Shown in pieces: positions 7,367-40,579 of a stretch of DNA of 48,545 bases; within the stretch, counting starts at the first letter, position 1, and each line of letters begins with the position of its first letter. The position numbers and the translations under genes were made by a program. The DNA comes from Sphaeroforma arctica JP610 (taxonomy: Eukaryota), in contig NW_014039895.1 of the NCBI RefSeq assembly GCF_001186125.1, forward strand, positions 3,545-52,089, in the 5' to 3' direction. The notes below the pieces were generated by a model, which had not been told where the DNA came from, searched no databases, and worked only from the letters and a program-made list of their open reading frames with translations.

Positions 7367-10072
7367 CTATCTCCGCGCAGACACCGTCTTGGGCCTGAAC
7401 TTGGGTATGTAGGTCAATTTCTCGTCCTTCGGCATGAACGGATTAGACAGTTCACCCGCATCAGCCGTATTATCGGGCCCTACCCACTGCCTGCCCTTGC
7501 GCGTGCGCCAATCCCCGCCACGGTAAGAGTCTCTGATCATCGCGACGAAATCCAGCTGCGCCTGAGCCACACTCGGGGAAAACATCGCGTCTCTGTGTAC
7601 GATTTCGCTGGCGGGAGGTGCACTGACCTGTACTCGGCTGCCAGCGGGCACCTGCAGGGCTACCCACCCAAGACCCAGCACAACCATATCCTGGGCATCG
7701 GGGGACAGCAGCTGAAAGTTCTGTACTTTCGCATGACTCAGGTCTACTATCACAGAATCGTCCGTTACGTACTCGTAAGTCCCTGTCCCGTCCTTCTGAG
7801 TGTCTACATCACTATGCCTGGATGTGCCTGCTATCGAGATAGCCTCCGCTTGCACAGACACAGGGCTGTACCAGACCATTGTTGGCTCCTCCGTAATCTT
7901 CCTATCAGGCAAGTGTATGTCGATACTCAGAGGCAGGCCTGGTACACGCACTCGCACACTACCTGCAGGCGGACGATGGTGCGGCTCGCCTACCTCACAT
8001 TGCAATTTACCTACCTCTACCCCACTGACCGTATCCGTGCCACACACGTTCGGCGGCACATGCGCGTTATGTTCCGAACTTCGGGGCCACGGAAGGATTT
8101 GCGGTTCCAGCATAGTGGGAAGGATGGGCGGGATGTCCCATTGATAGGTGCGAGGAAACAGACCGGGCGTGTCGAACAGAGCGTGCTTGTGACTGTGGAA
8201 ACACGGGATACGTGTGGTCATAAGCGTGGTACCGGCTAGATGGGAGGTGGTGGAGAGACTCCACTGCACACGCTCTTTGCGATGGGCTTCCTCGCCCACA
8301 AACAGGTTTATATTGAGCATGCGCTGTGCAAAGGCATTGACCAGCGTCGATTTACCGACATTCGCATTCCCCATGACGTACACATTGCGTCCCATGAGGT
8401 TGTCGCGTATGCACTGCACCAGATTGTTTATGCCACTGTCCCGTTTGCCCGAGAGCAGGAAGGTCTCCTCATACGCCACACGCGTGCCTCTCTCCTGCAT
8501 CCGGCTCTGGAAGTACTCTCGCAGGTGCCTGCCCTGTGTCTCGTCACTGATATCAAAGGGCAGCAGATCGCACTTGGTCACCACAAGGATAACCGGGTGT
8601 CGGTCAATGTACGTGCGCAGATTGCGGATCAGCGACCCCTCAAAGTCCGTCGCATCCACCACTAGCAGCACATACGCCCGCAACTCCTTGGCAATGACCG
8701 CTACCTCCTTTTCAAACACAGCCACATGCGCCCTGTCCTGGGGAAGCGCGTGTCTCCGCACATCTGCGACACTCCCGGCCAACTGGTCTCTTTGCCGGGC
8801 CTTTTTCACGGCCTCCCGTGGCCCACCCTTGGCCTGCTTGTCCGCTATAAGGGTCCGACACCGCAGACACAGCCCCATCCGATAAAACCGAGCAACCCGC
8901 GTGCTTTTGATGATCTTTGAGGTCACACCCTCCTCCGGTCTGAAGGCTATAATCCCCCCACACCCGTGGCATATATTCCCGGCTTCTTCAGCCACGCCTG
9001 CGACCATGAACCGCTCGCGCAACTCTATCTCGGGCGAGAAACGCTCACCCCGTTCGTTGTACTTCACTACAGTCAGAGGACGCCCTGATTTCAACGCCTT
9101 TACTCCTCTGGATACAGTGTTTCCGGTATCGGACGAGTGTATGGCGTTGTCGGCGCTTGTCCTATCGAGCCCTGCCGCGTCTTGGTGCATACCTTGCTGC
9201 GCCGCTCGTTCGTACGCAAGGTCCACGTCATGCCTTCTCCGATGGGGTGACCCAGGTACAACTGTACTGTTCCTACCACCCTCCTCACTAGTACCAGGTA
9301 TACTCCTGCTTCTGTTACTATCGACTGCACTCGTGCCGCCATCGAGGGCTTTTCCTCGCCTCTCTGGGTGTATCCGTCTGTGTGCATGCGTTGTGCGTGC
9401 GTCTGTGTTATGTTCAGGCGTCTTGTTCGCCTCCCTCGCCCGTTGTTCTGATACAATATCGCGCATTCGAGAGTTTTTCCTTGACTCGCCAATAACAACC
9501 CGATTTGCATCCACAAAATCTTCATTTGCACCAATTCCATCCCGATTTCTGGTCGCACGAGCGTCCCTGTTCGTCACATCAAAATCACCCCGTACCTTGC
9601 GTATGCGCATGTCTTTCTCTCGCTTTTCTCTCATATAAGCAGCCTCCCTATCACGCGCAGCTGCTATAACCCCCTCCCGTCCTCTAAGCGTTAGCCTCGC
9701 ACGCGTCTCCATCTCCTTCTCTTTGAACTCACGTCGTTTCTTGTCGATGTCGAAATTCGGGTCGAAATCGTTCCCAAACAATGACCCGAAATTGTGACTG
9801 CGACAGACGACACGCTGAACTATGTGCATACACTGCGGTGCCGTTCTTGTGCAGGCGAGTGTGTGTGTATGTGCTGAGAGATACGGAAGTGCACTCGCAT
9901 GGGATAGACCTGCACGACGAGACACGAGAGATCGGTTGTGCGATCTCAGCAAGGACTTCGGCGCCTTTGTGCCGCAATGACGGTTCATAGTGTGTGTGGG
10001 TTGTTTTAAACCCCAACTTCCCGTTACCATCGAGACCCGACAAGGACGCGCAAGGCACATACGCACCGACAT
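7367..10072 (-). CDS. NOA1: NOA1/YqeH-family circularly permuted GTPase (probably mitochondrial ribosome assembly), intronless, 901 aa
   Basis: Zn motif CHGCG...CLRC, then VVDATDF and permuted G motifs in order G4 (TKCDL), G5 (LSG), G1 (GNANVGKST), G2 (GTT), G3 (DTPG). The Arg/Ser-rich N-terminus with few acidic residues resembles a mitochondrial presequence (inference). ATG at 10072-10070. The family is clear; exact orthology is less certain. Confidence 0.82.
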   Translation of the reverse strand: MSVRMCLARPCRVSMVTGSWGLKQPTHTMNRHCGTKAPKSLLRSHNRSLVSRRAGLSHASALPYLSAHTHTLACTRTAPQCMHIVQRVVCRSHNFGSLFGNDFDPNFDIDKKRREFKEKEMETRARLTLRGREGVIAAARDREAAYMREKREKDMRIRKVRGDFDVTNRDARATRNRDGIGANEDFVDANRVVIGESRKNSRMRDIVSEQRAREANKTPEHNTDARTTHAHRRIHPERRGKALDGGTSAVDSNRSRSIPGTSEEGGRNSTVVPGSPHRRRHDVDLAYERAAQQGMHQDAAGLDRTSADNAIHSSDTGNTVSRGVKALKSGRPLTVVKYNERGERFSPEIELRERFMVAGVAEEAGNICHGCGGIIAFRPEEGVTSKIIKSTRVARFYRMGLCLRCRTLIADKQAKGGPREAVKKARQRDQLAGSVADVRRHALPQDRAHVAVFEKEVAVIAKELRAYVLLVVDATDFEGSLIRNLRTYIDRHPVILVVTKCDLLPFDISDETQGRHLREYFQSRMQERGTRVAYEETFLLSGKRDSGINNLVQCIRDNLMGRNVYVMGNANVGKSTLVNAFAQRMLNINLFVGEEAHRKERVQWSLSTTSHLAGTTLMTTRIPCFHSHKHALFDTPGLFPRTYQWDIPPILPTMLEPQILPWPRSSEHNAHVPPNVCGTDTVSGVEVGKLQCEVGEPHHRPPAGSVRVRVPGLPLSIDIHLPDRKITEEPTMVWYSPVSVQAEAISIAGTSRHSDVDTQKDGTGTYEYVTDDSVIVDLSHAKVQNFQLLSPDAQDMVVLGLGWVALQVPAGSRVQVSAPPASEIVHRDAMFSPSVAQAQLDFVAMIRDSYRGGDWRTRKGRQWVGPDNTADAGELSNPFMPKDEKLTYIPKFRPKTVSARR

Positions 10073-10934
10073 CTTGGCAGTGTAAAGTGGGCAGACGGAT
10101 GCAGTTGATGGGCGTGGGTTTTACGACAACACACAAACAGATCGATCTATCTATAATCTAATTCGTACTTGATCTCTGGGCAGAGATGTTAGTATTTGGC
10201 CTGGTACATAAGCCCTTAATTACTGGTGCAGTATATTCTGTACTGCTGTGTTGACGTGAAACTTGATCACAGTTTAACTGGATGGCTATTCCTTTCTGTG
10301 AAGTAAGTGCGTGAGAGGTCAGACTGTCACACTTTACATTCCCATCAAACTACGAGATGGAAAGTAGCACTGGAGTGCAGATAGCTGATTTACAGCAAAG
10401 CATAAAGCATGGCATACTAAGGTATATATCGTCAATGGACTTCTCGACAGAGGAGAGAGGCTATGGACACCCCAATTCTAAGACATGCAGCATAGCAATA
10501 GGCTTCACATGATGCATATTGTGGCAAGCGGCCACATGAGATATTCGATACAGAGCAGTTCACTTTGCCGACGAAATTTTAACTTTCAGCCTCCAGGTTC
10601 CTTCCAAGTTCCTTCACGTTCATTTTTTTTAACGAACATATAAATAAATAGAGTATTCTCAACAGCATAGTCTGTACTGTCATACGCGTAAACAGCTAGC
10701 TATCACTGTGTGTCTGGTCTGTTGCACTGTTACACCTACGACGTATACTCATATGATAGTATCTTGTATATAGAGCGAACGCACATAGTGCGTGCTCACC
10801 ATTTAGCATTGGGCATTAGAATTTATATATATAAATATATTGAATTTAGAAACTCGGCTATTTAAGACTTGGACTATAATAAAGGTTCAATACATACCAT
10901 ACTGCCATATAGAATAAAGTAAGAGAAGTAAAGT
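10073..10934. promoter_or_regulatory. Probable shared promoter region between the divergent NOA1-like and CDC40 genes
   Basis: 862 bp between head-to-head start codons, with AT-rich TATA-like tracts near 10640 and 10825. Positional inference only. Confidence 0.4.
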
Positions 10935-28225: not shown

Positions 28226-29058
28226 ATACCAAGACGTTTATGTTAATAAGACAATAAGTTAATCCGTTTAAATGCAAAATGTTAAATAAGTTTAGCTTCA
28301 ACCCTTCGTGATGAGCAAAAGATTAGGGGATTTTAGACTGAGACTATTGTTTATATGCTCCGCTCTAATCACTCACTACTTCGGTCTAGATTTATTTCTA
28401 TTTTAGTTACTAAGACCAGATATCATTTCATTGGACGCTTAGTTTACATTTCACGCCTCGAAACAATCATCTAATCAACTAACCAATAAAAAATACTTAA
28501 GAAAATAAAGGAAAATCAAAACACCAAGCTGGTGCAGTATACATCTGCACCTAGACCCCGTCACTTGGTACCTAGCTTCCCATCCCATTTAAGGCATAAA
28601 CGGGCACATCTAGTTGGCTGGCTAGGGGGAATCAAACCCATGTTGTCCTAAATTCTAATAACTCTGATCCTGTCCTTTTCTCAGTGGATTATCTTGCTCT
28701 GAGAACATTATCGAATTGTACCAACAACCATTTCATGCCTGAGACCCTCTCTCATGGTACTCCCATAAATTAGAGATTCCCAAAGTGTCATTATCAGGTG
28801 TCAGATTGGTGTCGTTCCTATATTATGTACAATTCTAACTTCAGTGGAAAACCCAATCTATATTTCGAAAGCCACTTAATTATCCACAGTAGAGTCTCAT
28901 ACTCTAAGTTCTTGTTCATGTCCAATTCGTTAAACGTATTTCAGTATTATAAGAATATCCGTTGATATGTTTATACGTTTATAATATACGTTAGCTGTGC
29001 AACTACTATTAGGAACCCGCTATTTTTACACAGCATAAACGTTATATACCAAATCATG
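28226..29058. mobile_element. ~0.83 kb AT-rich non-coding insertion (solo LTR or MITE) splitting the minus-strand integrase
   Basis: Flanked by ATAAG at 28221-28225 and 29059-29063; removing it restores the frame IDSSTY|SQPRGDQLLQL. Alternative boundary: 9-bp inverted repeat ACGTTTATG (28234) / CATAAACGT (29034-29042). Confidence 0.6.
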
Positions 29059-29316
29059 ATAAGTAGAGGAGTCAATCAATGGGGCCGTCCACTCTTCCAG
29101 GGTACGGATGGCCATCTCTGCTCGTCCATTACCGCCGTGATGTGCCACCGACGTTAAATACACAAACATCCCATGCTCTAACGCAAAGTCCTTGAACAAC
29201 TTGCTGTCAAATATACTGTCCATGTCCGCAACAATATGCTGTGGAAGTCCACAGGGAAACACTTGTTCTAACATAAACTTGATGACACCTCTCGTAGTTT
29301 TCTTAGCTTGCGTAAA
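29059..29316 (-). pseudogene. Integrase catalytic core fragment (second D and the E) of the minus-strand gypsy element
   Basis: KKTTRGVIKFMLEQVFPCGLPQHIVADMDSIFDSKLF...HHGGNGRAEMAIRTL. Confidence 0.85.
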
Positions 29317-30170
29317 TGTAATAGCTGGGCCTCCATATTAAGCTCTATGTTATACACGTACTCTTAAGCAGTACGTAAACTACAAACGTATTCTTAATAG
29401 TACGAGGAACTTAAGTTTCCTAAATGGTTTTTAACGGTTTTATTAATTAATACCTTTTCCATTTCACATATCAGATATTTGGACAAGGCCATTAAAAGGC
29501 CCCAGTAAAATACCAAACATAAGATTTGGTCTAGTTCTATTAATAGAACTATATTTACTTTCCAAATCTATTTATATCTGAATACTTCGGTAGCGAGATG
29601 GCTCAACCGAACATAGGTTTCTAAGGACTATTAGCATTGCTTAGTTTATCCTCCTTTCAGCCAACCAGATGTGCCAGTCTGATGAAGGCTAAGTCGATAA
29701 TTCTTGATAAGTGGTAAGTTATTGGTTAATGCAATAACTATGGACATCAGGAGTATTTTTCTTTTTCTATTCCTTTTTTCTTCTAAAGATAGGATTTTAT
29801 GAGTATCTTGGATTGCCCCAACGAAACATACCATAGTTTCTATTAGAGTGACAACGAAACACTCAATAAAATCCCTTCGGCGAAAACAGTACTGAGAGGA
29901 TTATATATAGGCAATGTCTCAGCCTCACAATCCCTCAAAGTATTGCTGTTTTCACGAGGCATACCTAACTTTACTAAACGACTCATTTCGTTTATTTATT
30001 TCAAATTTAACTATACTTAGACTTAACCGAAGAGTTTAATTACTTTAAGGCGTTAATATCGCCTTGATAGACCGAAACTTACATAAAAACGCAAACCACT
30101 AACAACTTCGACATTTCGTTTACAGCGACTTGCAATTACGCCCGAAAAGCGTAAAGGCCTGAGCGCTACA
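29317..30170 (+). repeat. 5' LTR (TGTA...TACA)
   Basis: Starts TGTAATAGC at 29317 and matches 34845-35645 up to 30129. The end at ...GCGCTACA 30170 is inferred from the terminal inverted repeat and a following TGG-starting PBS-like tract (TGGCAGTTGAGCCAG, 30175-30189). Confidence 0.85.
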
Positions 30171-30173
30171 CCT

Positions 30174-31515
30174 GTGGCAGTTGAGCCAGATGTACTCAGC
30201 GCATCTATACTTTACGAGGTACTACCACCAGAACTCCAGGCTAATTATTCGCCTGTTCTAACGCCCGGCCATGAGTTGCCCGTCCTTGAAGGTATTATAG
30301 ACCCAGAGGCAGGTAAAAATACTCCGCCACCTTTACCCAACTGGGATGACAATCGTCGAGAACCAGGTAAGACTGGGTATGTCATCCAGACGCATGAATC
30401 ACCCAAGATTATAATACCAATTACTATCCAAGAAACAGCGCACCGAAAGGCCTCGACCATGGACTTTACAAGGGGTAATAAACACTCCCGTAAACGTGTT
30501 AACGATGTCGAATTTAATCGCTTCGATTGCACAGCATTACACCAGCCCGCAGAGGATATCCACTCCGACGAGGTGACCGAACTTTTATAAATCGGTCGAC
30601 GATTACACCATTAAGATGGAAATCGCCCATGGCGAGCACCGTGCTGATGACGTATCATATTTTGCTAATATGATCGCGATCAAGCAGAAGCGCATCGATC
30701 AGCTACTTCAGGCCCAACGTGGGCAAGACCCCCGGGATAACTCGAAGTCCAAGGGACAGATTAGTTGACTTAAGTCGAACTGGGATGCCAACAGCAAGCA
30801 GGTCGAGTTTATAAACAACCATGACCTCGACACCCTAAACCGTACGTTTAATGCGTTTACGGTCATGCTGGAGACGAATGATATCGCTCCCCAGCAATGG
30901 ATTTCTGCTTTAATGCAATCGTTTGACCCTACATGAACAAGTTACTTGATCCTGCAGCGACATCAGCATGAGCTAGACACTTGTCGTGACTGTCCAGCTG
31001 TGTGTTGGTTGGTTACGTCCTTATTTAGCAAGGACATACGAAGTCCAGGGCTGAGTTCAATCTTAACTGAACCGGTTGAGAATACTCCTATTCAGAGTTA
31101 TATTCTGAAACTTGATGCTGATCTTAAACGTCCAGATATAACAAAGGACAAGGCTCAGCGATGGTACAAGTTCCTGGTTATGCATGTTTTCTGTAAGAGC
31201 ATAAGAAACAACGACCGTGAAAGTCTGTACACCGAGTTGCGACGTAAATACGCTACTGAGGCTCGAGACAAGGGACGTGAAACAAAGTTTTATCTATCCC
31301 GACTTACGTGGGAACAGCTTTATGATACTGTATCCACCCTTTTCCCCGCACACCGAGTATCCTCGAAGGGAAAGGCGGTAAATAAGAAACCGCGCGAGCT
31401 CCCTGATTAAGGATACCTCTCACGCCAGACGTCAAATGATAAACCTCATCAGACGCGTCCTAACCAGACACGTGCTCGCGACTCCACTCAATCAACGCGA
31501 CCCAATAAACATGTA
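30174..31515 (+). pseudogene. Degenerate gag region of the + strand gypsy element
   Basis: Broken ORFs 30174-30590 and 30946-31410 lie between the 5' LTR and RT. Assigned by position; no zinc knuckle recognised. Confidence 0.55.
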
Positions 31516-32541
31516 CCAATTGAACCTAACACAGGGGTATCATCAAATGCAAATTTATGAAGCCCATCGTAAGTACTTTAGTTTTACCTGGAAAGGTAAA
31601 CAATAAAGGTTTAGAGGTGCACCTTTTGGGTCGCACTCCTTACCAGCATTCTTCCAACAAGTTATGGAGGAAAAGTTTGCAGACATGCCTAACGTGCAAG
31701 TCTATATAGATGACATAGTCATTTTTTTTAAGACTAAGGGCGAACATGCCGCAATAGTCAGGCGAGTCCTTCAGAGACTCAACGAACAAAACTTCAAGAT
31801 TAACGAGAAGAAATGTCACTTCGCCATGAGCGAAATACAGCTCTTAGGCTACCGTATATCTGGGGAAGGTATTAAAATCGACCCCGGTAAGGTGGAACAC
31901 TTGTTAGATTGGCGAACACCAACTACAGGAAGAGATGTGAACAGCATGTGTGGGTTTGTAAACTTCTTTTCAGATGGAGTACCACACTTGGCTGATTATC
32001 TTAACCCTTTGAACACTTAAGATGTCATAAAGGTAAACCAGGAGACTTGTGGACTAAAGAGTGTAATGACGCATTTAAAGCGCTCAAGCACGCAGTCCAA
32101 CAAGCCCCTGTTGTACAAGGACCAGTCGCTGGCGTGCCTATTGAAATAGTAACGGACGCATCAGACTTAGCACTCGGAGGTGTACTATACCAGGTTATAG
32201 ATAATAAACCTAGGTATATACAATTGTTTAGCCGAGCAATGAATGCATCACAGTTGAATTATCCAACTGTGAAGCAAGAGCTACTAGCCATAGTAGCAGC
32301 TTTGACACACTTCCGCGAATATGTATACGGAACAGCTTTTACGCTGATGTGTGATCAGAAGTCCCTTCAATATATGAAGGAAATGAAGCCAGACTCTCAA
32401 TTACTGAGCCGATGGCATGATACAATATCAAAGTTTCATTTTGATATCAAACATCTACCAGGGATACATAACCATTTACCGGATATGTTATCACGCTTTG
32501 TACCGGACTTTAATAAATCCGTACGTGGGTTACTAGCCACT
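31516..32541 (+). pseudogene. Reverse transcriptase (5'-truncated) and RNase H
   Basis: LNLTQGYHQMQI...RKYFSFTWKGKQ*RFRGAPFG...YIDD...KKCHF...LLGYRIS...GFVNFF, then RNase H motifs. Stops near 31603 and 32018. Confidence 0.92.
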
Positions 32542-32905
32542 GATTGGAAATGTAACCCCAGGTGGTTTGAACTGGCTCAAAAGATATTTGGGCACATACA
32601 GTTGACATGTTTGCTGCACATCATAACGCACAACTTAAGAATTACAGGACTTTAAATCATCCTTTAGTATATGCCTTTTAATTAGACCTCTCCGAACATA
32701 ATGCGTGGGCTAATCCACCATGGCAGTTATTTGCCCAATTACTAAATTATGTTCATATACACAAAGCTATCATCACGTTGTGTTGCCCATTACGGAGTAA
32801 AGATCCATGGCTCAATACAAAATAAGCATGATACAATGCGAGCCAATATTTTAGATAGGGAAGTAGATACTTTCCTATATCAGGGTACCCGAGCCGCCCA
32901 GAAGA
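32542..32905 (+). pseudogene. Dam-like DNA N6-adenine methyltransferase domain (DIRS-type MT) in pol
   Basis: With one frameshift near 32593: DWKCNPRWFELAQKIFG-HTVDMFAAHHNAQLKNY...YAF*LDLSEHNAWANPPWQLFAQLL...ITLCCP...DPW. NPPW lies at 32712-32723. Confidence 0.85.
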
Positions 32906-33299
32906 CNNNNNNNNNNNNNNNNNNNNNNNNNNNNNTCAGAGATTCCACTCCCTACTAAATTGAGCGTTAAGCAATTCAAAGGCAACACAGCACTTGAAGT
33001 CTCTGCACAAGAAATACAATCTACTAGTGACACTACAGTTAAGAAGCGTCAGTCTCTAGCTAGGACTCTGCTTAATAACATAGAGTCCAAGCCCGAAGTC
33101 TTTCAACCCCTATTTTTAAAAGGGATTGATGAAAGATAATCCCGAAGCATATACACATATAATGCGACTATTAAATAAGTCAGGTGTACCAAACGCACTC
33201 GAGCGCACTCATGACACTCATGCGAAAGAAGGACAGGAGTCTGGAAACACTACTGACTCAGAGACCACGCAAGTGGGTTCTTAACACCCTACCTTTATT

Positions 33300-34616
33300 G
33301 TGGAGGAGCAGAATGATGAAAACATTCTTGCTTGGCTGACGCAAAACCATAAGCTGTGCGTAGTAGACGCAATTGAAGATGCTAAGCGAAATGGGATCGC
33401 GCACCCTAAGCTGGCAACTTTAGTTGACAGAGTATATCAGTCATGTACAGACTGTGATCTCAACCAGATTAAGCGCTATGGGTTCGCACCGCTTAAGAGT
33501 GTGACTGAAGATGTTCCATGGCGCAGGGTCATCATTGATCTGGTTGACCTGCCTACGTCCGAGCACACAGGCGACCGTTACGTATGCCACTTCTTACGGT
33601 ATAACTTGCTCTATACTTCAAAGGACAAGAGTACGCAGGCCGTGGCAGAATTATGTTGCCAAGTCTTTGCTGACCACGGGTGGCCAGGTGTAATGTGTAC
33701 TGATAACGGTAGCGAGTTCTGTGATGACGTAATGGAATCGTTAGTACTCGTATCAGGCATGTGCCATAAAAGGGATGTACCATATAAACCGCAAACACAA
33801 GGCGCGAATGAAACGCGCCATAGAAGACTTGAGTGCTTCTTACGTACTGCATTAACGGATGATGCAGATGATTTACAAACACAGATGAACGAGTGTGTTG
33901 ATCCGGTTACAGGTACAGCACCCGCTCACTATTTTCGTGGCAGATATAGTGAGTTACAAATACCTTTTAACAAGGACGAACCTAATCACCATGAGTTACC
34001 ATGGTTAGAGCCATGGTTAGAGAAGGTACAACGTGTTTATAACGTTGTATATCCTTGCTTGCGAGAAACACGCAATATTGCCTTATTAAAAAGGCAAAAT
34101 AGATGGAACGCTACCAAAAAGATAGCAGAGTATCAGGTTGGAGACAGAGTTATCATCCGTCAACGTAATTCCGATGCTACTGTACTAACATCGAAATGGA
34201 TAGGACCATACATAGTCTCTGTAGCCGACTATGAGGTTAATAACCCCGACGGTTCTAGTGCTTTAAATATAGGCACTAGTCGGATTCCGACTACCGAGAT
34301 TATACTCGCAAGAAGACATGGCTCTAATGCCCCTCTTGATCGTCCTGAATTTAAAGACATTATATGGAGAACGAATAAGGGAGGTTATACATACTATCGT
34401 ACACGCTTTATAGACGGTACAATCTCTGAGTTGACTTCAGATGCTTTCGATAATCAAGACTATTTGAAAGCCTTTCATCGAAAATGGCGTAAACGCCTGC
34501 ATAAGTCACAAGCTGAAAAGATAGCATGTTTCCATCGTCTGAAGGCACAGAAGTTAAAACTTACTCGCTTACAGCATTTATCACGAGCTTTAAGGCTCAC
34601 CCTTCATATGTGCTGA
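33300..34616 (+). CDS. DDE (rve) integrase of the + strand gypsy element, with chromodomain-like C-terminus
   Basis: Open frame of 438 aa with CTDC, IIDLVD, TDNGSEF, GANE, then YQVGDRV...KWIGPY (GPY/F module). Part of a broken pol, so not an independent gene. Confidence 0.85.
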   Translation: MEEQNDENILAWLTQNHKLCVVDAIEDAKRNGIAHPKLATLVDRVYQSCTDCDLNQIKRYGFAPLKSVTEDVPWRRVIIDLVDLPTSEHTGDRYVCHFLRYNLLYTSKDKSTQAVAELCCQVFADHGWPGVMCTDNGSEFCDDVMESLVLVSGMCHKRDVPYKPQTQGANETRHRRLECFLRTALTDDADDLQTQMNECVDPVTGTAPAHYFRGRYSELQIPFNKDEPNHHELPWLEPWLEKVQRVYNVVYPCLRETRNIALLKRQNRWNATKKIAEYQVGDRVIIRQRNSDATVLTSKWIGPYIVSVADYEVNNPDGSSALNIGTSRIPTTEIILARRHGSNAPLDRPEFKDIIWRTNKGGYTYYRTRFIDGTISELTSDAFDNQDYLKAFHRKWRKRLHKSQAEKIACFHRLKAQKLKLTRLQHLSRALRLTLHMC

Positions 34617-34844
34617 AGACACTGAAGCGTAAGAAACGTCCAGTCGACCACCACGGACCTACTAGACCTAAGCCCAAAACTCACAGGGTAACCGAGAACG
34701 CTTAACTTCTCCGCCTGAGAAACATTAACTATACGTAATGCTACTTAATGTTTTCGACCCGTTTTTACTTCTCGCTTTGTAAATCCAAAATCGGCTCGCG
34801 TGAGCAACTAGTCTCTGTTGGATTTCAAAGCTGGGCGGAGGCTG

Positions 34845-35645
34845 TGTAATAGCCGGGCCTCCACATTAGACTCTTTGTTATAAACGTACTCTTAAGCAGT
34901 ACGTAAACTACAAACGTATTCTTAATAGTACGAGGAACTTAAGTTTCCTAAATGGTTTTTAACGGTTTTATTAATTAATACCTTTTCCATTTCACATATC
35001 AGATATTTGGACAAGGCCATTAAAAGGCCCCAGTAAAATACCAAACATAAGATTTGGTCTAGTTCTATTAATAGAACTATATTTACTTTCCAAATCTATT
35101 TATATCTGAATACTTCGGTAGCGAGATGGCTCAACCGAACATAGGTTTCTAAGGACTATTAGCATTGCTTAGTTTATCCTCCTTTCAGCCAACCAGATGT
35201 GCCAGTCTGATGAAGGCTAAGTCGATAATTCTTGATAAGTGGTAAGTTATTGGTTAATGCAATAACTATGGACATCAGGAGTATTTTTCTTTTTTCTATT
35301 CCTTTTTTCTTCTAAAGATAGGATTTTATGAGTATCTTGGATTGCCCCAACGAAACATACCATAGTTTCTATTAGAGCGACAACGAAACACTAAATAAAA
35401 TCCCTTCGGCGAAAACAGTACTGAGAGGATTATATATAGGCATTGTCTCAGCCTCACAATCCCTCAAAGTATTGCTGTTTTCACGAGGCATACCTAACTT
35501 TACTAAACGACTCATTTCGTTTATTTATTTCAAATTTAACTATACTTAGACTTAACCGAAGCGCTTAATTACTTTAAGGCGTTAATATCGCCTTGATAGA
35601 CCGAAACTTACATAAAAACGCAAACCACTTTTCGTTTACAGCGAC
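34845..35645 (+). repeat. 3' LTR, 3'-truncated, preceded by a PPT-like tract (AAAGCTGGGCGGAGG)
   Basis: Direct repeat of 29317-30129 with about 11 substitutions and one 13-bp deletion (manual count). It lacks the last ~41 bp of the 5' LTR. Confidence 0.9.
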
Positions 35646-38600
35646 CAATACTGAGCATTCTCCTGCGGATGCCACAGGAAGGTCGACGAAATCCACACCC
35701 CAGTGGGCTAAATGACCGCTGTTCGCTCAGGTTGTTGCAACAAGCCTGAAGATTCTGGTGGTGGCCTCCCATACTGCTGATACTGTGCACGAACTCGAAC
35801 TATCATTCGTATTTGCGGCCACAAGTTACCCCACCCAGGTACATATTTTGTCAAGTGCTCCAAGCGTGCCTGCGCAGCATGCGCATATGTTACATGGAGG
35901 TATTGCAAGGACTTAACAACTTGTGCTCCTGTTAGCTCCACGCCTCAAAGTTTCCGTGTGGGGCAAGCCAACAGGACCGGCCGGGGATCCACCTGAAGAG
36001 GAACAGCCTTTCGTCTAAGAGCCGAACCAGCATTATCCCTTGTGTCTCCCAGTTCCTCAGCGTTTATTGACGCCGCCACCACAGGTATGTCACGCTCCTG
36101 AGTACTAACCGTATCTTGCTGTCTGTCGACGGATATACTCACTGTTCTGCTCTGTTCAGTGATTGGTCCAAAACATACATTTCTTTCACTTTCATAACCA
36201 GAAATGCAGCCACCTGTCGCACCCCGGTCCTCAAAGAGTTTAGTTGCATCTGCGTCGTTGTGGTTGTTTGCCTGACATGCTTCGATTCAGCTGGCTCCAT
36301 AACCGAGTCACTGCTGAACAAAGCTTCACACTTCTTCCAGATTTCCGCACTTACTTGAAAATGTCTTGGACCCAATCTGCAGATGAGAGTAACAAATGAA
36401 GGTGGTTTTGTATCCTCTCGCCCATGCCTGTTGAATACCTCCGCTAACTATGGGGTCGTCAGCTAAAAGTTCCACCAAAATAGGGAACCACTCTGTCCAA
36501 GGCCAGTAAGGGCATACTAAAGTACACCACGCTACTTCCTTCTTGGCCTTGTTGACCACTTTGGGTAGCAACGTCCAATGATGATTAAATAACTAGTTAA
36601 CACTGGGGTCGCCCCAGTATCACACAAATAACCCTCTTTCTAGAGTAGGAACACAATAATAGGGAAGTATGGCGTTGCCTGGTAAGGCAAACCCGTCGGC
36701 CGTGTGGGGTCCCCACTGCTTATCTGCCGCTTTAAAGTATGGGGACGTAAGTTGGTACTCCTCTGTCGACGGCATGGATGCTAGTGGATAGGCAAAATGT
36801 TTTCTGAGGTCTTCACTACCCTCTCGCACCCGCAGTATGGGATCAATGGTAACACATGAGCGGGACAACACATCCGCTATAGGATTTTCTTCCACAGGTA
36901 TGTGCACTATTTACCCATTGAAGTCTCGTACTACATCGTAGTATCGTCCCATTCGTCTGCCCCCGACGTCGTCTACAAATGATTCTTTAGACCTAGAAAA
37001 TATTGCTACCAATGGCTGGTGGTCAGCATATAGCCGTATCACCTTCTCCGTACGACTGAGTATCCTCATGTCCTTGCGTATCCCGCACACCAGGGCCAAG
37101 GCCTCTTTGTCTGTGATGTGATATGCCTTCTGCGCCCCATCATACCGTGAAGAGACGAAGCTGACAGGCAGATAACTTCCATTCTAAATACTGTAAGTAT
37201 ACCACCTATGCCTACTGATTCGCAAGCGTCTGCGAACATCACTAGTTTCGTAGTAGTTCCCCAATTTTCTGAAATGCAGCTCGTTGCGGTTGATCCCATA
37301 TGAACACACTATCATCTTTTAGCAGTATCGCCACTGGTTGCAGTATCCTCGCAAAATTGGGCACATACTCTAGCCCACCAACCCACCCTATGGTACCAAG
37401 ATTTTAGTCGATCCTTTGAGGTTGGTTCATTTAGCTCTAGCAACGCATGTAAGCGTACATCCCCCATTGTAGATCCTATATAGTCCACCAGCCTCCCTAT
37501 GATTACCACCGGCGTTCTGTATTGCGCTACCACACATTTGGAAAGTCTTAGCTGCACATTATATCGTCGGCACCTCTCCATAAAAAACTTTAGCCACTTC
37601 CGATAAATCATCAATGTAGCAAACCACATCATCGAGACCCGCAAATATCTCTTCTAACACCTGCTGACACCTCCACGATGCCTCCTTCAACCCGAAGGGC
37701 ATCCCCACAAAGGGTTATCTTCCAAAAGGTGTCTTAAAAGACAAGTATTTACGCGACAGGGGTGCTATCCTCAACTGATAGAACCTTGACCCATATCCAT
37801 TGTCGTTGTATAATTTTTGTTTTTCAACTTAAGACAAATTTTCACGTTTTGTGGGTATATGATACAGTACCGCTCTTAGTTGCGTATTCACTCTTTTCAG
37901 ATTAACACAACACCGCCAATCGTCCACTTCTACAGGTGTCACCCCGGGCTTCTTATAGACCAAATGAGGAGCCGAATATCATTCGCTCTTCTGAATCTCT
38001 TCTATAATGCCTGCCTTCAACCACGCAGACACCTTCTGGAACAATGCTCCTCCCCTTACTTAATCATTGTGAAAGTAGCTCGTATATTGAGGGACAGCGT
38101 CAACATTCTCGTAAAGTATCAGGTCGGCTACATTAAGAAATTTTGGATGCATTGCATCATACGCAACCGCCTCAAACAGGGACAGTAAGGTATGTACTTT
38201 TTCTTTAGATGCCATTACTGTTTCTGCCAATTTGTGTATTCCATCGGTTACAAGATCTGAGTAGTCCAAAGCCTTGTCCCAGACCACATTTTCATGTTCA
38301 TCGTCTAGCCACTCCGATGTGCAATATTTTTTCGCTGAGTCTCGGTAAAGCATGAGATACTCCTGTCGCGCTCTTAGTCATAAGCCCTTCATACACAGGC
38401 ATCTTCTCTTCTCCAGCTCCTTCTTCAGGCATCACCGCCACTACTATATACTCCAATGCCAGTTGACGTGCGGACTCCATAAGCTCTTCCTGGGGGACTA
38501 CGGTCAGTACTTGCTTTCTCCAAACTAGATGCCAGCACAGCTCCTGCAGACTTTTGTATCCCACCAGTAAGTCACAACTCATGGGAATACATGTTACTAC

Positions 38601-39413
38601 AAAACACCTCATGGCCACAGTTTTTGTATAAACCTTCCATGATACTATCTGTACGTCCACCACCACCTCGCCTATGGGTGTAAGCTCACCAAACCCTTTT
38701 CCGGTATACACTGATATTTCTATGTTCAGGCGTTCTACTAGGTCTGTGGTTATCCGCGTAGGAGTAGCTCCTGAGTCCAAATAACTCAGACTTTTTACTC
38801 CATTTACCACAGCCTCAGCAACGCTTCCATGTCAGTGTTTGCCAGGTACCACAAACTTTGCGGCACTGGCAACCACAGCCCCAGCTACCTTAGCGTCTTC
38901 GGCTGCTGTCGAAACTGTATTGATTGCTGCTCCTGCTACTCCAGCTGCTGACGTGGCCTTCAATGCAACTGCTACCACTGCTTCTTCCTCCTTCTTCGTC
39001 TGAGCTGTCTTGATGATCTTAGTACGCTTCCTCTTTTGTTGAGGTATGTGGCCAGACATATTACCATCTGTCATGGGACAGCTGGTAGACTTACAAGGAT
39101 GTCAGCCAGTATAAATTTCTCCACCTGGGACCTGACCTTATGCTCCCACAGAGCCATTAGTACGGACAGGCACCCCTCGTCTAGCTTCTAACAGATCACT
39201 CTGTATCTTACACCCTAATGGTAGACCCCATGTCTCATAAGCTATTTCTACAATCACCATGTCCTGCTCCTTCGGATAGCAAGCCAAAACAAAATTGTGC
39301 AAATCAACTTCAATTTGTTTCATATTCTTCATTGATTGCTTACCAAAATCCTCAAGTTTTACCATTCTCAAGCATGGTAATATTATCCTGGGAATGCCGC
39401 TCTGAGACTGCAC
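35646..39413 (-). mobile_element. Older, decayed Ty3/gypsy element: gag?, protease, RT, RNase H, Dam-like MTase, integrase N-terminus (continues at 29316 and 28225)
   Basis: Protease VNGVKSLSYLDSGAT (~38810-38765). RT GMPFGLKEA...VVCYIDDL (YIDD 37607-37618). RNase H LVMFADAC...GIGGIL, LYADHQPL, HIPVEENPIADVLSR. Integrase LHVTYAH and HWGVDFVDLP...SVLVA. Many stops and frameshifts; no 5' LTR seen. Confidence 0.9.
36400..36770 (-). pseudogene. Second Dam-like MTase domain (degenerate) in the minus-strand element
   Basis: Single frame: EEYQLTSPYFKAADKQWGPHTADGFALPGNAILPYY...LFV*YWGDPSVN*LFNHHWTLLPKVVNKAKKEVAWCTLVCPYWPWTEWFPILVEL. NHHW (36575-36586) is at the NPPW position. Confidence 0.8.
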
Positions 39414-40199
39414 TCTTGCTACTCTTATACGTCCTTTAAGAGGAAATACTCTAAATGTACATGGTCTACATGGGAAAGTCTCAAATGTAAAACGTTCATA
39501 CAGATTTACGGGTACGTTTTTTAATTGCTCAATGAAATTCCCTAAATGTGGTATTCAATTCCTTTCTCGAACTTACTTCAAATAAAACCTAAAAAGTACA
39601 TTTAGCGACTGTTATATGTACATTTAGCGACTTTCCAGTGCTGTATTTTTTTTATGACACCTGGGTTCGACGCAAAGCTTCTTCCCTTAAATACATTCTG
39701 GAGGCCCATAGGCACCACGGAACCTCCCCCTGATGTTTCAAACCCAGCACCCGCACATCCTGTGTGTGTACGTTAGGCCACAATCGAAGAAATGTCGATA
39801 GATGTCAAATGACTTCCGCTTATTAATTTGACAATATTTCAGACCCATCATTGGAATGTAAATATGATTGAGTGTGTGTTTGTTTACATTGTGTATGCGA
39901 TTGTAGAGAATTCCAACTTCTTTCTCATTGCTGTCATCATCTTATTTGCACTACCCACAGCACAAAGAATAGGAAAAGAGCTACACATCATAAGATCAAT
40001 ATTATACAAAATGCCATATATGGTTCATTATCAACTCGTACATAGGAGCAGGTCATATCCGTATAAAATTATATCTTTATAGATGTCTGAATGCTGATTG
40101 GTAGCTAAGGACAAAATATCAATGGCCGATTCGTTATGATCTCGTGCTCGGGAACAAATCCTAACTAACTTTCGTCGTAAATATCCGTTCGCGTATCAA

Positions 40200-40579
40200 G
40201 CTTGTACTGGCCGACTTCCCTCGTGAGCTATGGCCGCTGGCTTGTTGCTCATTCTGTTCACGTTCAGTGGTGCCAGAAATTTGGCCTCTACAAACTACGT
40301 TTTATGCGTGCCTGTTGTCGGTTTCTAAAAAAAAATCAAATACTTTGGATACCTTTCTAGTGATTATGATTACGCTCTAACATGCTCGCGCTTTTACTGG
40401 CCGACTTCCCTCGTGAGCTATGGCCGCTGGCTTGTTGCTCATTTTGTTCACGTTCAGTGGTGCCAGAAATTTGGCCTCTACAAACTACATTTTATGCGTG
40501 CCTGTTGTCGGTTTCTAAAAAAAAATCAAATACTTTGGATACCTTTCTAGCGATTATGATTACGCTCTAACATGCTCGC
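40200..40579 (+). repeat. Tandem duplication, 190-bp period, two near-identical copies
   Basis: TACTGGCCGACTTCCC...CATGCTCGC starts at 40205 and 40395. Confidence 0.93.

What the first reader, a model, noticed from the sequence alone, without database searches (positions are those of the whole stretch)
35646..39413. A second, highly divergent gypsy family has the MTase in the same position
Seen: the minus-strand element reads PIADVLSR, a linker, then EEYQL...WGPHTADGFA..NA.LP.Y...LFNHHWTLLPKVV...TLVCPYWPWTEWFPIL, then an integrase, with no assembly gap in between. Its RT, RH and IN peptides differ strongly from the + strand element, and I see no nucleotide-level similarity. Inference: the architecture is not a one-off capture. 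It is either an old clade retained under selection or a repeated acquisition. This copy also argues against a gap artefact in the first element. NHHW in place of NPPW may be decay or a family variant.
Basis: partly seen in the sequence, partly recalled or inferred. Interest (0 to 1): 0.8.

Follow-up and report, generated by a model that had tools for sequence, protein, structure and literature searches.

The report
Dead gypsy retrotransposon with methyltransferase-like domain
This is a broken, dead copy of a second gypsy-type jumping gene that carries an adenine-methyltransferase-like domain between its RNase H and integrase, a real design that a 2026 preprint has already described, so it is genuine but not new.

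Summary
On the minus strand, RNase H, a DIRS/Dam-type methyltransferase-like (MT) domain and the start of an integrase lie in one reading frame (37183-35708, 8 stop codons, no N). The integrase core is cut at 35646 by the plus-strand element (LTRs 29317-30129 and 34845-35645). It resumes at 29316 going down.

RT and RNase H group with Ty3/gypsy, not DIRS. The MT segment finds 156 proteins at E<=1e-3, mostly DIRS-type ORFs, and 69 of 151 scanned carry Pfam Dam. A predicted fold (pLDDT 85) matches methyltransferases best: PCIF1 Z 7.8, T4 Dam Z 6.9.

The two elements share no nucleotide similarity. In MT trees both fall with other gypsy-borne MT domains and apart from all DIRS-type rows (support 94/94). 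The RT/RNase H data reject putting the two elements in one clade (AU p 0.014).

This copy is dead and low-copy. NHHW replaces NPPW, unique among 151 domains, while 15 of 17 other conserved positions survive. Whether that is decay or a family variant stays open.

Gypsy elements with this domain ("DAM-LTRs") were described in bioRxiv 10.64898/2026.05.21.726589 (May 2026), including a lineage in ichthyosporeans, the likely host group here. This scan also noted the design before, on other DNA. Verdict: real, already known, modest interest.

The parts
38298..38831 (-). Protease-like ORF of the minus element (…SYLDSGATP…)
   Evidence: Weak Pfam hits to gag-asp_proteas (E 0.0026) and Asp_protease_2 (E 0.0047), both below the curated cut-offs. 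The D-S-G-A motif is read.
37315..38086 (-). Reverse transcriptase of the minus element, in two frames (38086-37604 ending YIDDL, then 37599-37315), with in-frame stops
   Evidence: tblastn of gypsy polyproteins, for example P0154 q206-361, E 1.8e-9. Best local phmmer hits are gypsy-type proteins, the top being P0179 at 5.5e-12.
36860..37298 (-). RNase H of the minus element (three frame changes at its start), ending …PIADVLSR
   Evidence: Pfam RT_RNaseH PF17917 at E 2.8e-11. Best local hits are gypsy-type: P0179 at 1.3e-11 and P0181 at 1.9e-10.
36325..36787 (-). DIRS/Dam-type methyltransferase-like domain of the minus element. It has two in-frame stops and one frame change near 36420.
   Evidence: phmmer finds 156 proteins at E<=1e-3. 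A single tblastn HSP spans RNase H plus MT with DAM-bearing gypsy polyproteins: P0055 at E 3e-16 and P0118 at E 7e-14. The predicted fold has pLDDT 85.2; best structural matches are PCIF1 at Z 7.8 and T4 Dam at Z 6.9.
36686..36697 (-). D-G-F-A, at the conserved D-x-F-A position of the domain
   Evidence: In the 151-row alignment these columns read D 149/151, F 142/151 and A 144/151. All three are kept in the minus copy.
36575..36586 (-). NHHW (AAT CAT CAT TGG) where relatives have NPPW or NPPF
   Evidence: DNA read. Motif counts over 151 rows: NPPF 50, NPPW 42, NHHW 1. P at position 2 in 133/151 and at position 3 in 144/151.
35800..35950 (-). Putative integrase zinc-finger region (LHVTYAH…RVRAQY), same frame as RNase H and MT. 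Unverified.
   Evidence: Assigned by position only. phmmer against the 180 session proteins gave no hit at E<=1.
35646..35726 (-). Start of the integrase core of the minus element (…HWGVDFVDLPVASAGECSVL), cut by the plus element's 3' LTR
   Evidence: It matches positions 49-75 of a profile built from 24 gypsy integrases, at E 0.057. It ranks third of 1548 six-frame segments of the window.
29029..29316 (-). Continuation of the minus element's integrase core (…GLPQHIVADMDSIF…HHGGNGRAE…)
   Evidence: It matches positions 86-162 of the same integrase profile at E 8.1e-10, ranking second of 1548 segments. phmmer hits the integrase regions of gypsy proteins, for example P0178 at 2.5e-7.
29317..35645 (+). 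Plus-strand gypsy element nested in the minus element's integrase. LTRs are 29317-30129 and 34845-35645.
   Evidence: The LTRs are 98.5% identical over 785 nt, plus a 16-nt match after a 13-nt indel. The internal part is collinear with P0154 and P0151 from RT onward.
32500..32906 (+). MT-like domain of the plus element (NPPW at 32712-32723). It has two frame changes and stops, and runs into the N gap at 32907-32935.
   Evidence: Translations. 62% identity to P0151 over 126 columns. Weak Pfam Dam hit at E 0.081.
33285..34616 (+). Open integrase ORF (443 aa) of the plus element
   Evidence: Integrase profile E 2.2e-42. Homologue P0154 carries Pfam rve at E 5.9e-9 in the aligned region. The window ORF itself has no Pfam hit at E<=0.01.
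39435..39600 (.). Start of an unrelated high-copy repeat that bounds the recognisable minus element on its 5' side
   Evidence: Summed contig depth is 6540 against 129 for the single-copy part in run X2, with many contigs ending at 39435-39441.

Best explanation
The minus-strand stretch is a decayed, non-functional copy of a Ty3/gypsy-type retrotransposon whose pol reads protease, reverse transcriptase, RNase H, a DIRS/Dam-type methyltransferase-like domain and a DDE integrase in that order. Its integrase was most likely split later by insertion of the plus-strand element.

It belongs to the kind recently named DAM-LTR. In active members the domain would be translated as part of the Pol polyprotein, between RNase H and integrase. 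It is predicted (untested here) to bind S-adenosylmethionine and an adenine in the element's own nucleic acid. The target could be the reverse-transcribed DNA, the RNA-DNA hybrid or the RNA cap region. New copies would then carry, or attract, the host's permissive 6mA mark.

This copy can do none of that. It has 8 stops in the 492 codons from RNase H to integrase, several frame changes, an interrupted integrase, no detectable LTRs, and HH in place of the PP of the catalytic motif.

Its MT domain, the plus family's and that of a third gypsy family (P0066, P0122, P0025) probably come from one gypsy-associated MT lineage rather than from separate DIRS captures. That lineage either descended vertically or was exchanged between gypsy families.
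For: Shown by calls:
- One frame from RNase H through MT to the putative integrase zinc-finger region.
- RNase H hits Pfam at 2.8e-11.
- A single tblastn HSP covers RNase H plus MT against DAM-bearing gypsy polyproteins: P0055 at 3e-16, P0118 at 7e-14.
- 156 MT homologues at E<=1e-3. Of 151 proteins scanned, 69 carry PF05869 at E<=1e-5 and 4 carry rve together with the MT domain or its homologous region (P0055, P0118, P0122, P0154; my counts).
- RT/RNase H tree: the minus element lies on the gypsy side of a 100* split from 6 DIRS rows.
- The two integrase pieces flanking the plus element match adjacent parts of one integrase profile: positions 49-75 at E 0.057 and 86-162 at E 8.1e-10. They rank second and third of 1548 window segments.
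- The plus element's LTRs are 98.5% identical, so that insertion is the younger one.
- MT trees: a branch with SH-aLRT 93 (151 rows) and UFBoot/SH-aLRT 94/94 (48 rows) sets 10 rows apart from all DIRS-type rows. The 10 are win_minus, win_plus, P0151, P0154, P0066, P0122, P0025 and three fragments.
- Fold: pLDDT 85.2, pTM 0.76. Best structural matches are PCIF1 at Z 7.8 (122 aligned, rmsd 3.4), T4 Dam at Z 6.9 and E. coli Dam at Z 6.4. About four in five of the 50 rows are methyltransferases by title.

From the literature (preprint Results, Discussion and Introduction read): DAM-LTRs exist in five lineages, one of them ichthyosporean with a conventional Ty3/gypsy organisation. The authors report more 6mA and more expression on DAM-LTR copies.

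Inferred: the mechanism of the domain, and the order of events.
Against: - No LTR pair for the minus element was found (blastn with words 9 and 7).
- No target-site duplication was recognised around the plus element, and about 10 integrase profile positions are missing at the junction.
- Pfam itself hits neither the minus MT segment (none at E<=10) nor the minus integrase pieces.
- The zinc-finger assignment is unverified.
- The RT/RNase H row of the minus element has a very long end branch (3.02) and an unresolved place. The AU test rejects it joining the plus, P0151, P0154, P0066 and P0122 clade (p 0.0137). That conflicts with simple vertical descent of one DAM-bearing ancestor.
- MT-tree support (93 to 94) is below the tool's star threshold. 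The nearest row, P0016, is itself a long, decayed fragment.
- Structural Z values are under 8, which the tool calls middling. Foldseek found nothing at E<=0.001.
- Catalysis is unproven for the whole class. The preprint saw no 6mA gain on expression in E. coli, and Iyer et al. 2016 (PMC4738411, passages read) regard DIRS1 MT domains as likely inactive.
Confidence: 0.8

Rival explanations
1. Repeated acquisition. The minus family captured its MT domain from a DIRS element independently of the plus family.
For: The RT/RNase H data reject a single clade of the minus element with the plus, P0151, P0154, P0066 and P0122 group (lnL difference 16.4, AU p 0.0137). The preprint infers at least four independent DIRS-to-LTR transfers. 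In my MT trees the chromovirus-type carriers P0055 and P0118 sit with a DIRS-type row (P0007), away from the window families (96/93), so separate captures do occur.
Against: The minus MT lies on the same side of a 94/94 branch as the plus family and the P0066 family. That branch separates it from all 35 DIRS-type rows of the 48-row tree, and the 151-row tree shows the same grouping (SH-aLRT 93). The AU clade was named after the tree was seen, and the minus row is a long, decayed branch.
Confidence: 0.2
2. The NHHW motif is a family variant. The minus family kept the domain after losing the catalytic prolines, so the domain serves a non-catalytic role such as binding nucleic acid or a host factor.
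For: The minus copy keeps 15 of the 17 columns that are at least 80% conserved in 151 domains. The only two lost are the adjacent prolines, both changed by the same C-to-A step, CCT to CAT. Its nearest row, P0016, reads NSSW at the same place. Only 114 of 151 domains keep the N of the motif (my count). Iyer et al. 2016 argue that DIRS1 MT domains are inactive binders.
Against: The copy is plainly dead, with stops on both sides of the motif (…VN*LFNHHW…). P0016 is also a decayed fragment: its D-x-F-A reads D-A-V-S. The pattern was noticed after the fact. Only one other diverged copy was seen in the genome, and its letters at this site were not shown.
Confidence: 0.3
3. Artefact. The RH-MT-IN order results from a DIRS fragment nested in a gypsy element, or from an assembly chimera.
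For: The locus demonstrably contains one nested insertion (the plus element), and the preprint warns of nested insertions creating chimeric elements in Euglena.
Against: RNase H, MT and the following stretch share one frame over 1476 nt. Single HSPs span RNase H plus MT against intact polyproteins. No DIRS-type RT or tyrosine recombinase lies nearby. There is no N in the region. Independent contigs of runs X2 and X15 cover 35650-39526 without a difference. Intact relatives of the sister family have the same order in one ORF.
Confidence: 0.03

Closest known systems
DAM-LTR retrotransposons, in particular the ichthyosporean lineage (Fernandez-Moreno et al., bioRxiv 10.64898/2026.05.21.726589, 22 May 2026; Results, Discussion and Introduction read; supplements closed)
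   Same: A Ty3/gypsy-type pol with a DIRS-derived Dam-like domain between RT/RNase H and integrase, and no chromodomain seen. The host gene next door has its best named relative in an ichthyosporean (CFRG0494T1, 40% identity; the tag's meaning is recalled).
   Different: This copy is dead, low-copy, lacks detectable LTRs and reads NHH where the preprint reports an almost universal N-P-P triplet. Whether the preprint's data set already contains this family cannot be told without its supplements.
DIRS1-type retrotransposons (RT/RNase H/MT ORF plus tyrosine recombinase)
   Same: The MT-like domain is homologous. Most of the 156 hits are 580-700-aa ORFs with the domain at their C-terminus, and six carry a tyrosine-recombinase region.
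   Different: RT and RNase H fall on the gypsy side of a 100* split from DIRS. The element has a DDE integrase instead of a tyrosine recombinase.
PCIF1/CAPAM, the cap-specific adenosine N6-methyltransferase (PDB 6irx)
   Same: It is the best structural match of the predicted domain: Z 7.8, 122 of 126 residues aligned, rmsd 3.4, 16% identity. It is also the best, though non-significant, PDB sequence-profile hit (E 0.54), aligning the …WG..t.D.FAs..N… block. Iyer et al. 2016 place DIRS1 MT domains in the PCIF1 clade.
   Different: PCIF1 is a large cellular enzyme with a WW domain and long insertions. The element's domain has only about 130-150 residues. The similarity is below the level that proves kinship.
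Phage/bacterial Dam, Pfam PF05869, and T4/E. coli Dam structures
   Same: 69 of 151 homologues scanned hit PF05869 at E<=1e-5. T4 Dam scores Z 6.9 and E. coli Dam Z 6.4.
   Different: The minus copy itself does not reach PF05869. According to the preprint, only part of the prokaryotic domain is represented.

Membership tests
Ty3/gypsy (Metaviridae-type) LTR retrotransposon | pol order PR - RT - RNase H - integrase | tested here: met
   Collinear tblastn matches to gypsy polyproteins. The pieces are ordered 38831 down to 35646, then 29316 down to 29029, on the minus strand.
Ty3/gypsy (Metaviridae-type) LTR retrotransposon | RT/RNase H groups with gypsy rather than DIRS | tested here: met
   42-row RT-RH tree: the gypsy/DIRS split is 100* and the minus element lies on the gypsy side. 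Its place within gypsy is unresolved (end branch 3.02).
Ty3/gypsy (Metaviridae-type) LTR retrotransposon | DDE (rve-type) integrase | tested here: met
   A profile of 24 gypsy integrases hits 29029-29337(-) at E 8.1e-10 and 35577-35726(-) at E 0.057, on adjacent profile parts. Pfam rve itself does not hit.
Ty3/gypsy (Metaviridae-type) LTR retrotransposon | Long terminal repeats flanking the element | tested here: inconclusive
   blastn found no repeat pair between 38.8-44 kb and 24-29.3 kb. The copy is old, its 5' side abuts a high-copy repeat at 39435, and its 3' end is undefined.
DAM-LTR (Fernandez-Moreno et al. 2026) | Dam-like (PF05869-type) domain encoded within the pol of a non-DIRS LTR element | tested here: met
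   By homology. phmmer hits reach 9.8e-11 to proteins, 69 of 151 of which carry PF05869 at E<=1e-5. The domain is in frame with RNase H. The minus copy itself has no direct PF05869 hit.
DAM-LTR (Fernandez-Moreno et al. 2026) | Conserved Asn-Pro-Pro triplet of the catalytic pocket | tested here: not met
   The minus copy reads N-H-H (AAT CAT CAT). The plus copy reads N-P-P. The miss occurs in a dead copy, so it bears on activity more than on descent.
DAM-LTR (Fernandez-Moreno et al. 2026) | Host encodes AMT1, and copies are enriched in 6mA | not testable with these tools
   No genome is held for this window, and no methylation data were available.
DIRS retrotransposon | Tyrosine recombinase and DIRS-type RT/RNase H | tested here: not met
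   The best RT/RNase H hits are gypsy-type and the tree agrees. A DDE integrase follows the MT domain. No tyrosine-recombinase-like segment was seen in the ORF and Pfam scans.
Class I SAM-dependent N6-adenine methyltransferase fold | Rossmann-like methyltransferase fold | tested here: inconclusive
   Model pLDDT is 85.2. VIA-align gives PCIF1 Z 7.8, T4 Dam 6.9, KsgA 6.5 and E. coli Dam 6.4, with most rows methyltransferases, but all Z are under 8. Foldseek found nothing at E<=0.001.
Class I SAM-dependent N6-adenine methyltransferase fold | Motif IV (D/N)-P-P-(Y/F/W) intact | tested here: not met
   NHHW in the minus copy, 1 of 151 rows.

The most novel reading that the evidence does not exclude
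The minus element represents a distinct gypsy family that obtained its methyltransferase-like domain from another gypsy family, not from a DIRS element, and then kept the domain after losing the catalytic prolines (NHHW here, NSSW in its nearest relative). That would mean the domain is passed around among LTR elements and is useful to them without catalysis.
Probability: 0.2. Interest if true: 0.5.

Novelty: already known. Interest (0 to 1): 0.3.

Why it matters
Retrotransposons that carry an adenine-methyltransferase-like module may manipulate the host's 6mA-marked, transcriptionally permissive chromatin. What the module does is still untested: the preprint found no activity in E. coli.

This locus adds a small piece. 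Two very different gypsy families in one genome carry related versions of the domain at the same position. One of them has the catalytic prolines replaced while the rest of the domain is kept. If the replacement proved to be a family trait, it would argue for a non-catalytic role and for exchange of the module between LTR families. As it stands, the locus is a confirmed example of a published design.

Tried and rejected
- Whole-genome copy survey: no genome is held.
- Long intact relatives of the minus family: the search for homologous proteins with 'longer' and P0001 found nothing at E<=1e-5. The exhaustive representative search gave at most 38% identity.
- Pfam on the minus pieces. The MT segment (E<=10), the RT pieces and the integrase pieces (E<=0.01) gave nothing. 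The SBD_N (0.014) and YbaJ (0.081) hits are chance-level.
- LTRs of the minus element: none found.
- Target-site duplication of the plus element: none recognised.
- Zinc-finger region of the minus integrase: no match.
- Foldseek against the PDB: best E 1.3, unrelated folds.
- PDB sequence-profile search: only non-significant rows, PCIF1 at E 0.54.
- Host identification through the protein atlas: uninformative taxa.
- Reads. The second used contigs only, so it cannot give copy number. It did not list the letters of the second copy at the NHHW site.
- The careful RT-RH tree did not finish in time, so the quick tree was used.
- Earlier notes for this genome: none.
Full report
**What is there.**

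The window is eukaryotic DNA with introns, microsatellites and N gaps. On the minus strand between about 38.8 kb and 35.65 kb lies a decayed retroelement.

- Protease-like ORF at 38831-38298, with D-S-G-A. Its Pfam aspartyl-protease hits (E 0.003-0.005) are weak and below the cut-offs.
- RT pieces at 38086-37604 and 37599-37315.
- RNase H at 37298-36860, with Pfam RT_RNaseH at E 2.8e-11.

From 37183 to 35708 everything is in one frame: 492 codons with 8 stops. The peptides PIADVLSR, EEYQL, WGPHTADGFA, LFNHHWTLLPKVV and TLVCPYWPWTEWFPIL are all there, and no N run falls in the region.

**The integrase is split by a nested insertion.**

The plus-strand element has LTRs at 29317-30100 and 34845-35629, 98.5% identical over 785 nt. 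A further 16-nt match follows a 13-nt indel, which carries the LTR ends to 30129 and 35645.

Directly outside both LTRs the minus strand reads integrase. On one side it reads …HWGVDFVDLPVASAGECSVL (35726-35646). On the other it reads FTQAKKTTRGVIKFMLEQVFPCGLPQHIVADMDSIF…HHGGNGRAE (29316-29029).

I built a profile from 24 gypsy integrases, leaving out the plus family, and ran it over all 1548 six-frame segments of the window. The ranking was as follows:

| Rank | Segment | E-value | Profile positions |
|---|---|---|---|
| 1 | plus integrase ORF | 2.2e-42 | 6-289 |
| 2 | 29029-29337(-) | 8.1e-10 | 86-162 |
| 3 | 35577-35726(-) | 0.057 | 49-75 |

The two minus pieces are therefore consecutive parts of one core. 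I infer that the younger plus element inserted into the integrase of the older minus element.

Three things count against a tidy picture. I saw no target-site duplication. About 10 profile positions are missing at the junction. The presumed zinc-finger stretch (about 35950-35800) matched nothing. So "then an integrase" is right, but most of it lies outside the finding's coordinates.

**What the inserted domain is.**

The 107-aa read-through of the minus MT segment (stops as X) was searched against 1.84 billion representatives. It found 156 proteins at E<=1e-3, the best being P0004 at 9.8e-11 and 38% identity.

Most hits are 580-700-aa ORFs with the domain at residues about 460-570, which is the DIRS RT/RNase H/MT layout. 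I scanned 151 proteins with Pfam: the 150 listed hits plus P0154. By my count, 69 carry PF05869 (Dam) at E<=1e-5, many carry RVT_1, and four carry rve. A local screen found six with a tyrosine-recombinase region.

The minus copy itself does not reach PF05869 (none at E<=10). The plus copy does so only weakly, at E 0.081.

An AlphaFold model of the minus domain, built on a 60-sequence alignment, has pLDDT 85.2 and pTM 0.76. Foldseek found no PDB match at E<=0.001. VIA-align against 48,161 chains gave these top rows:

| Chain | Z | Notes |
|---|---|---|
| zebrafish PCIF1/CAPAM (6irx) | 7.8 | 122 aligned, rmsd 3.4 |
| T4 Dam | 6.9 | |
| KsgA | 6.5 | |
| E. coli Dam | 6.4 | |
| M.TaqI | 5.3 | |

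About four in five of the 50 rows are methyltransferases by title. All Z values are under 8, which the tool itself calls middling.

PCIF1 was also the top, non-significant, PDB sequence-profile hit (E 0.54). This echoes Iyer, Zhang and Aravind 2016 (PMC4738411, passages read). They place DIRS1 MT domains in the PCIF1 clade and consider them likely inactive. The 2026 preprint instead derives them from prokaryotic Dam.

**Is the element gypsy, and how far is it from the plus element?**

Local phmmer of the minus RT and RNase H pieces against the 180 session proteins puts gypsy polyproteins on top. In a 42-row RT-RNase H tree the 6 DIRS rows and the 36 others are split at 100*. This was the quick search, because the careful one did not finish. 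The minus element is on the gypsy side, but with an end branch of 3.02 and no resolved place.

The plus element groups with P0151 and P0154 (100*), and this trio is sister to P0066 and P0122 (95*). All of these carry the MT domain.

P0154 (1400 aa) and P0151 (1376 aa) are intact polyproteins from short unnamed contigs. They are 64% identical to the plus RNase H ORF and read PR-RT-RH-MT-IN in one ORF. Together with the gap-free minus copy, this disposes of the gap-artefact worry.

Between the two window elements blastn (word 7) finds only chance matches (E 3.1). tblastx finds three collinear blocks at 30-42% identity, in RT, the RNase H end and the MT core. MT against MT is 22/64 identical, E 8e-4. 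"Second, highly divergent family, same position" is therefore correct.

**One capture or two?**

In the 151-row MT tree, a group of 10 rows is set off with SH-aLRT 93. The group contains:
- win_minus with fragment P0016
- fragments P0067 and P0058
- win_plus, P0151 and P0154 (100*)
- P0122, P0066 and P0025 (95*)

In a careful 48-row tree the same 10 rows are separated from all 35 DIRS-type rows, P0004 and the chromovirus-type carriers P0055 and P0118 by a 94/94 branch. P0055 and P0118 sit with a DIRS row at 96/93. For that tree I kept every second DIRS-type row and dropped the other fragments.

Every row of known class in the group of 10 is gypsy-type. This favours one gypsy-associated MT lineage for both window families.

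Against simple vertical descent, the AU test rejects the minus RT/RNase H joining the plus, P0151, P0154, P0066 and P0122 clade (lnL difference 16.4, p 0.0137). I named that group after seeing the tree, and the minus row is badly decayed. The trees are unrooted, because no Dam or PCIF1 outgroup was held. My reading is shared MT lineage about 0.55 to 0.6, separate capture about 0.2, and the rest unresolved.

**State of the copy, and NHHW.**

The copy is dead. It has stops and several frame changes: at least four in RT/RNase H, one in the MT tail and one in the integrase. Its integrase is interrupted and no LTRs were found.

Contigs of two genomic runs cover 35650-39526 identically at single-copy depth. 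One other 3.9-kb contig matches in pieces at roughly 80%, so the family has at least one more diverged copy. A high-copy repeat starts at about 39435.

The motif DNA is AAT CAT CAT TGG, preceded by a stop. Among 151 aligned domains, NPPF occurs 50 times, NPPW 42 times and NHHW once. P is present at the two positions in 133 and 144 of 151 rows.

The minus copy keeps 15 of the 17 columns that are at least 80% conserved. It loses only the two prolines, both by the same C-to-A step. Its nearest row, P0016, reads NSSW. That is suggestive of relaxed or lost catalysis in this sub-lineage. But both sequences are decayed and the pattern was noticed after the fact. I put decay at about 0.65 and family variant at about 0.3.

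**Host and literature.**

A neighbouring host gene, a YqeH-like GTPase at 7367-10120(-), has as its best named relative eukprot CFRG0494T1 at 40% identity, E 2.6e-106. The next relatives are at 31-33%. From memory, that tag belongs to the ichthyosporean Creolimax. On this basis the host is likely an ichthyosporean-related protist. This is an inference.

[quoted passage not shown] I read the Results, Discussion and Introduction. The supplements are closed. Its main points:
- It reports DAM domains in Ty3/gypsy elements ("DAM-LTRs") as new.
- It defines five lineages, including an ichthyosporean one of conventional gypsy organisation.
- It infers at least four DIRS-to-LTR transfers.
- It finds more 6mA and more expression on DAM-LTR copies.
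- It saw no 6mA gain when the domains were expressed in E. coli.

Earlier notes of this scan on other genomes point to the same preprint.

**Verdict.**

The kind is already known. The residual interest lies in two questions: the possible exchange of the domain between gypsy families, and the HH-for-PP replacement.

Noticed in passing
window 35650-39600 (+ strand): Contigs of run X6 skip five stretches bounded by GT..AG on the plus strand: 36081>36380, 36894>37091, 37192>37936, 38187>38415 and 38566>38813. Spliced RNA would look like this. It runs antisense through the dead minus element and begins at or before 35650, inside the plus element's 3' LTR. The joined exons hold no ORF over 74 aa. 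This may be an LTR-driven read-out transcript or a lncRNA.
   Followed up: partly
window 39435-39600: A high-copy repeat begins here. Summed contig depth is about 6500 against 129 single-copy in X2, and dozens of contigs end at 39435-39441. It overlaps the 138-aa minus ORF 39138-39554, so that ORF is not reliable gag.
   Followed up: no
window 30130-31517 (+): The plus copy lacks the protease and the first ~90 residues of RT found in its intact relatives. P0154 residues 1-293 have no tblastn match. It also has stops and frame changes in RT, RNase H and MT, yet its LTRs are 98.5% identical and its integrase ORF (443 aa) is open. It looks like a young but defective copy, possibly moved in trans.
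   Followed up: partly
window 33285-34616 (+): The plus element's open integrase ORF gets no Pfam rve hit at E<=0.01, although its homologue P0154 does (E 5.9e-9) and a local gypsy integrase profile scores it at E 2e-42. It is a diverged integrase that a standard domain scan would miss.
   Followed up: yes
proteins P0055, P0118 (not in the window): Two chromovirus-type polyproteins (gag-RT-RH-Dam-H2C2-rve, P0055 also with Chromo) carry an MT domain that groups with a DIRS-type row (P0007) and not with the window's families. This is consistent with a separate capture, as the preprint describes.
   Followed up: partly
window 40200-40579: Two tandem copies of a 190-nt unit, 98% identical, just beyond the minus element.
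   Followed up: no
window 19777-24924 (-): A 1715-aa uninterrupted ORF, the longest in the window, lies upstream of the retroelements. It was not examined.
   Followed up: no
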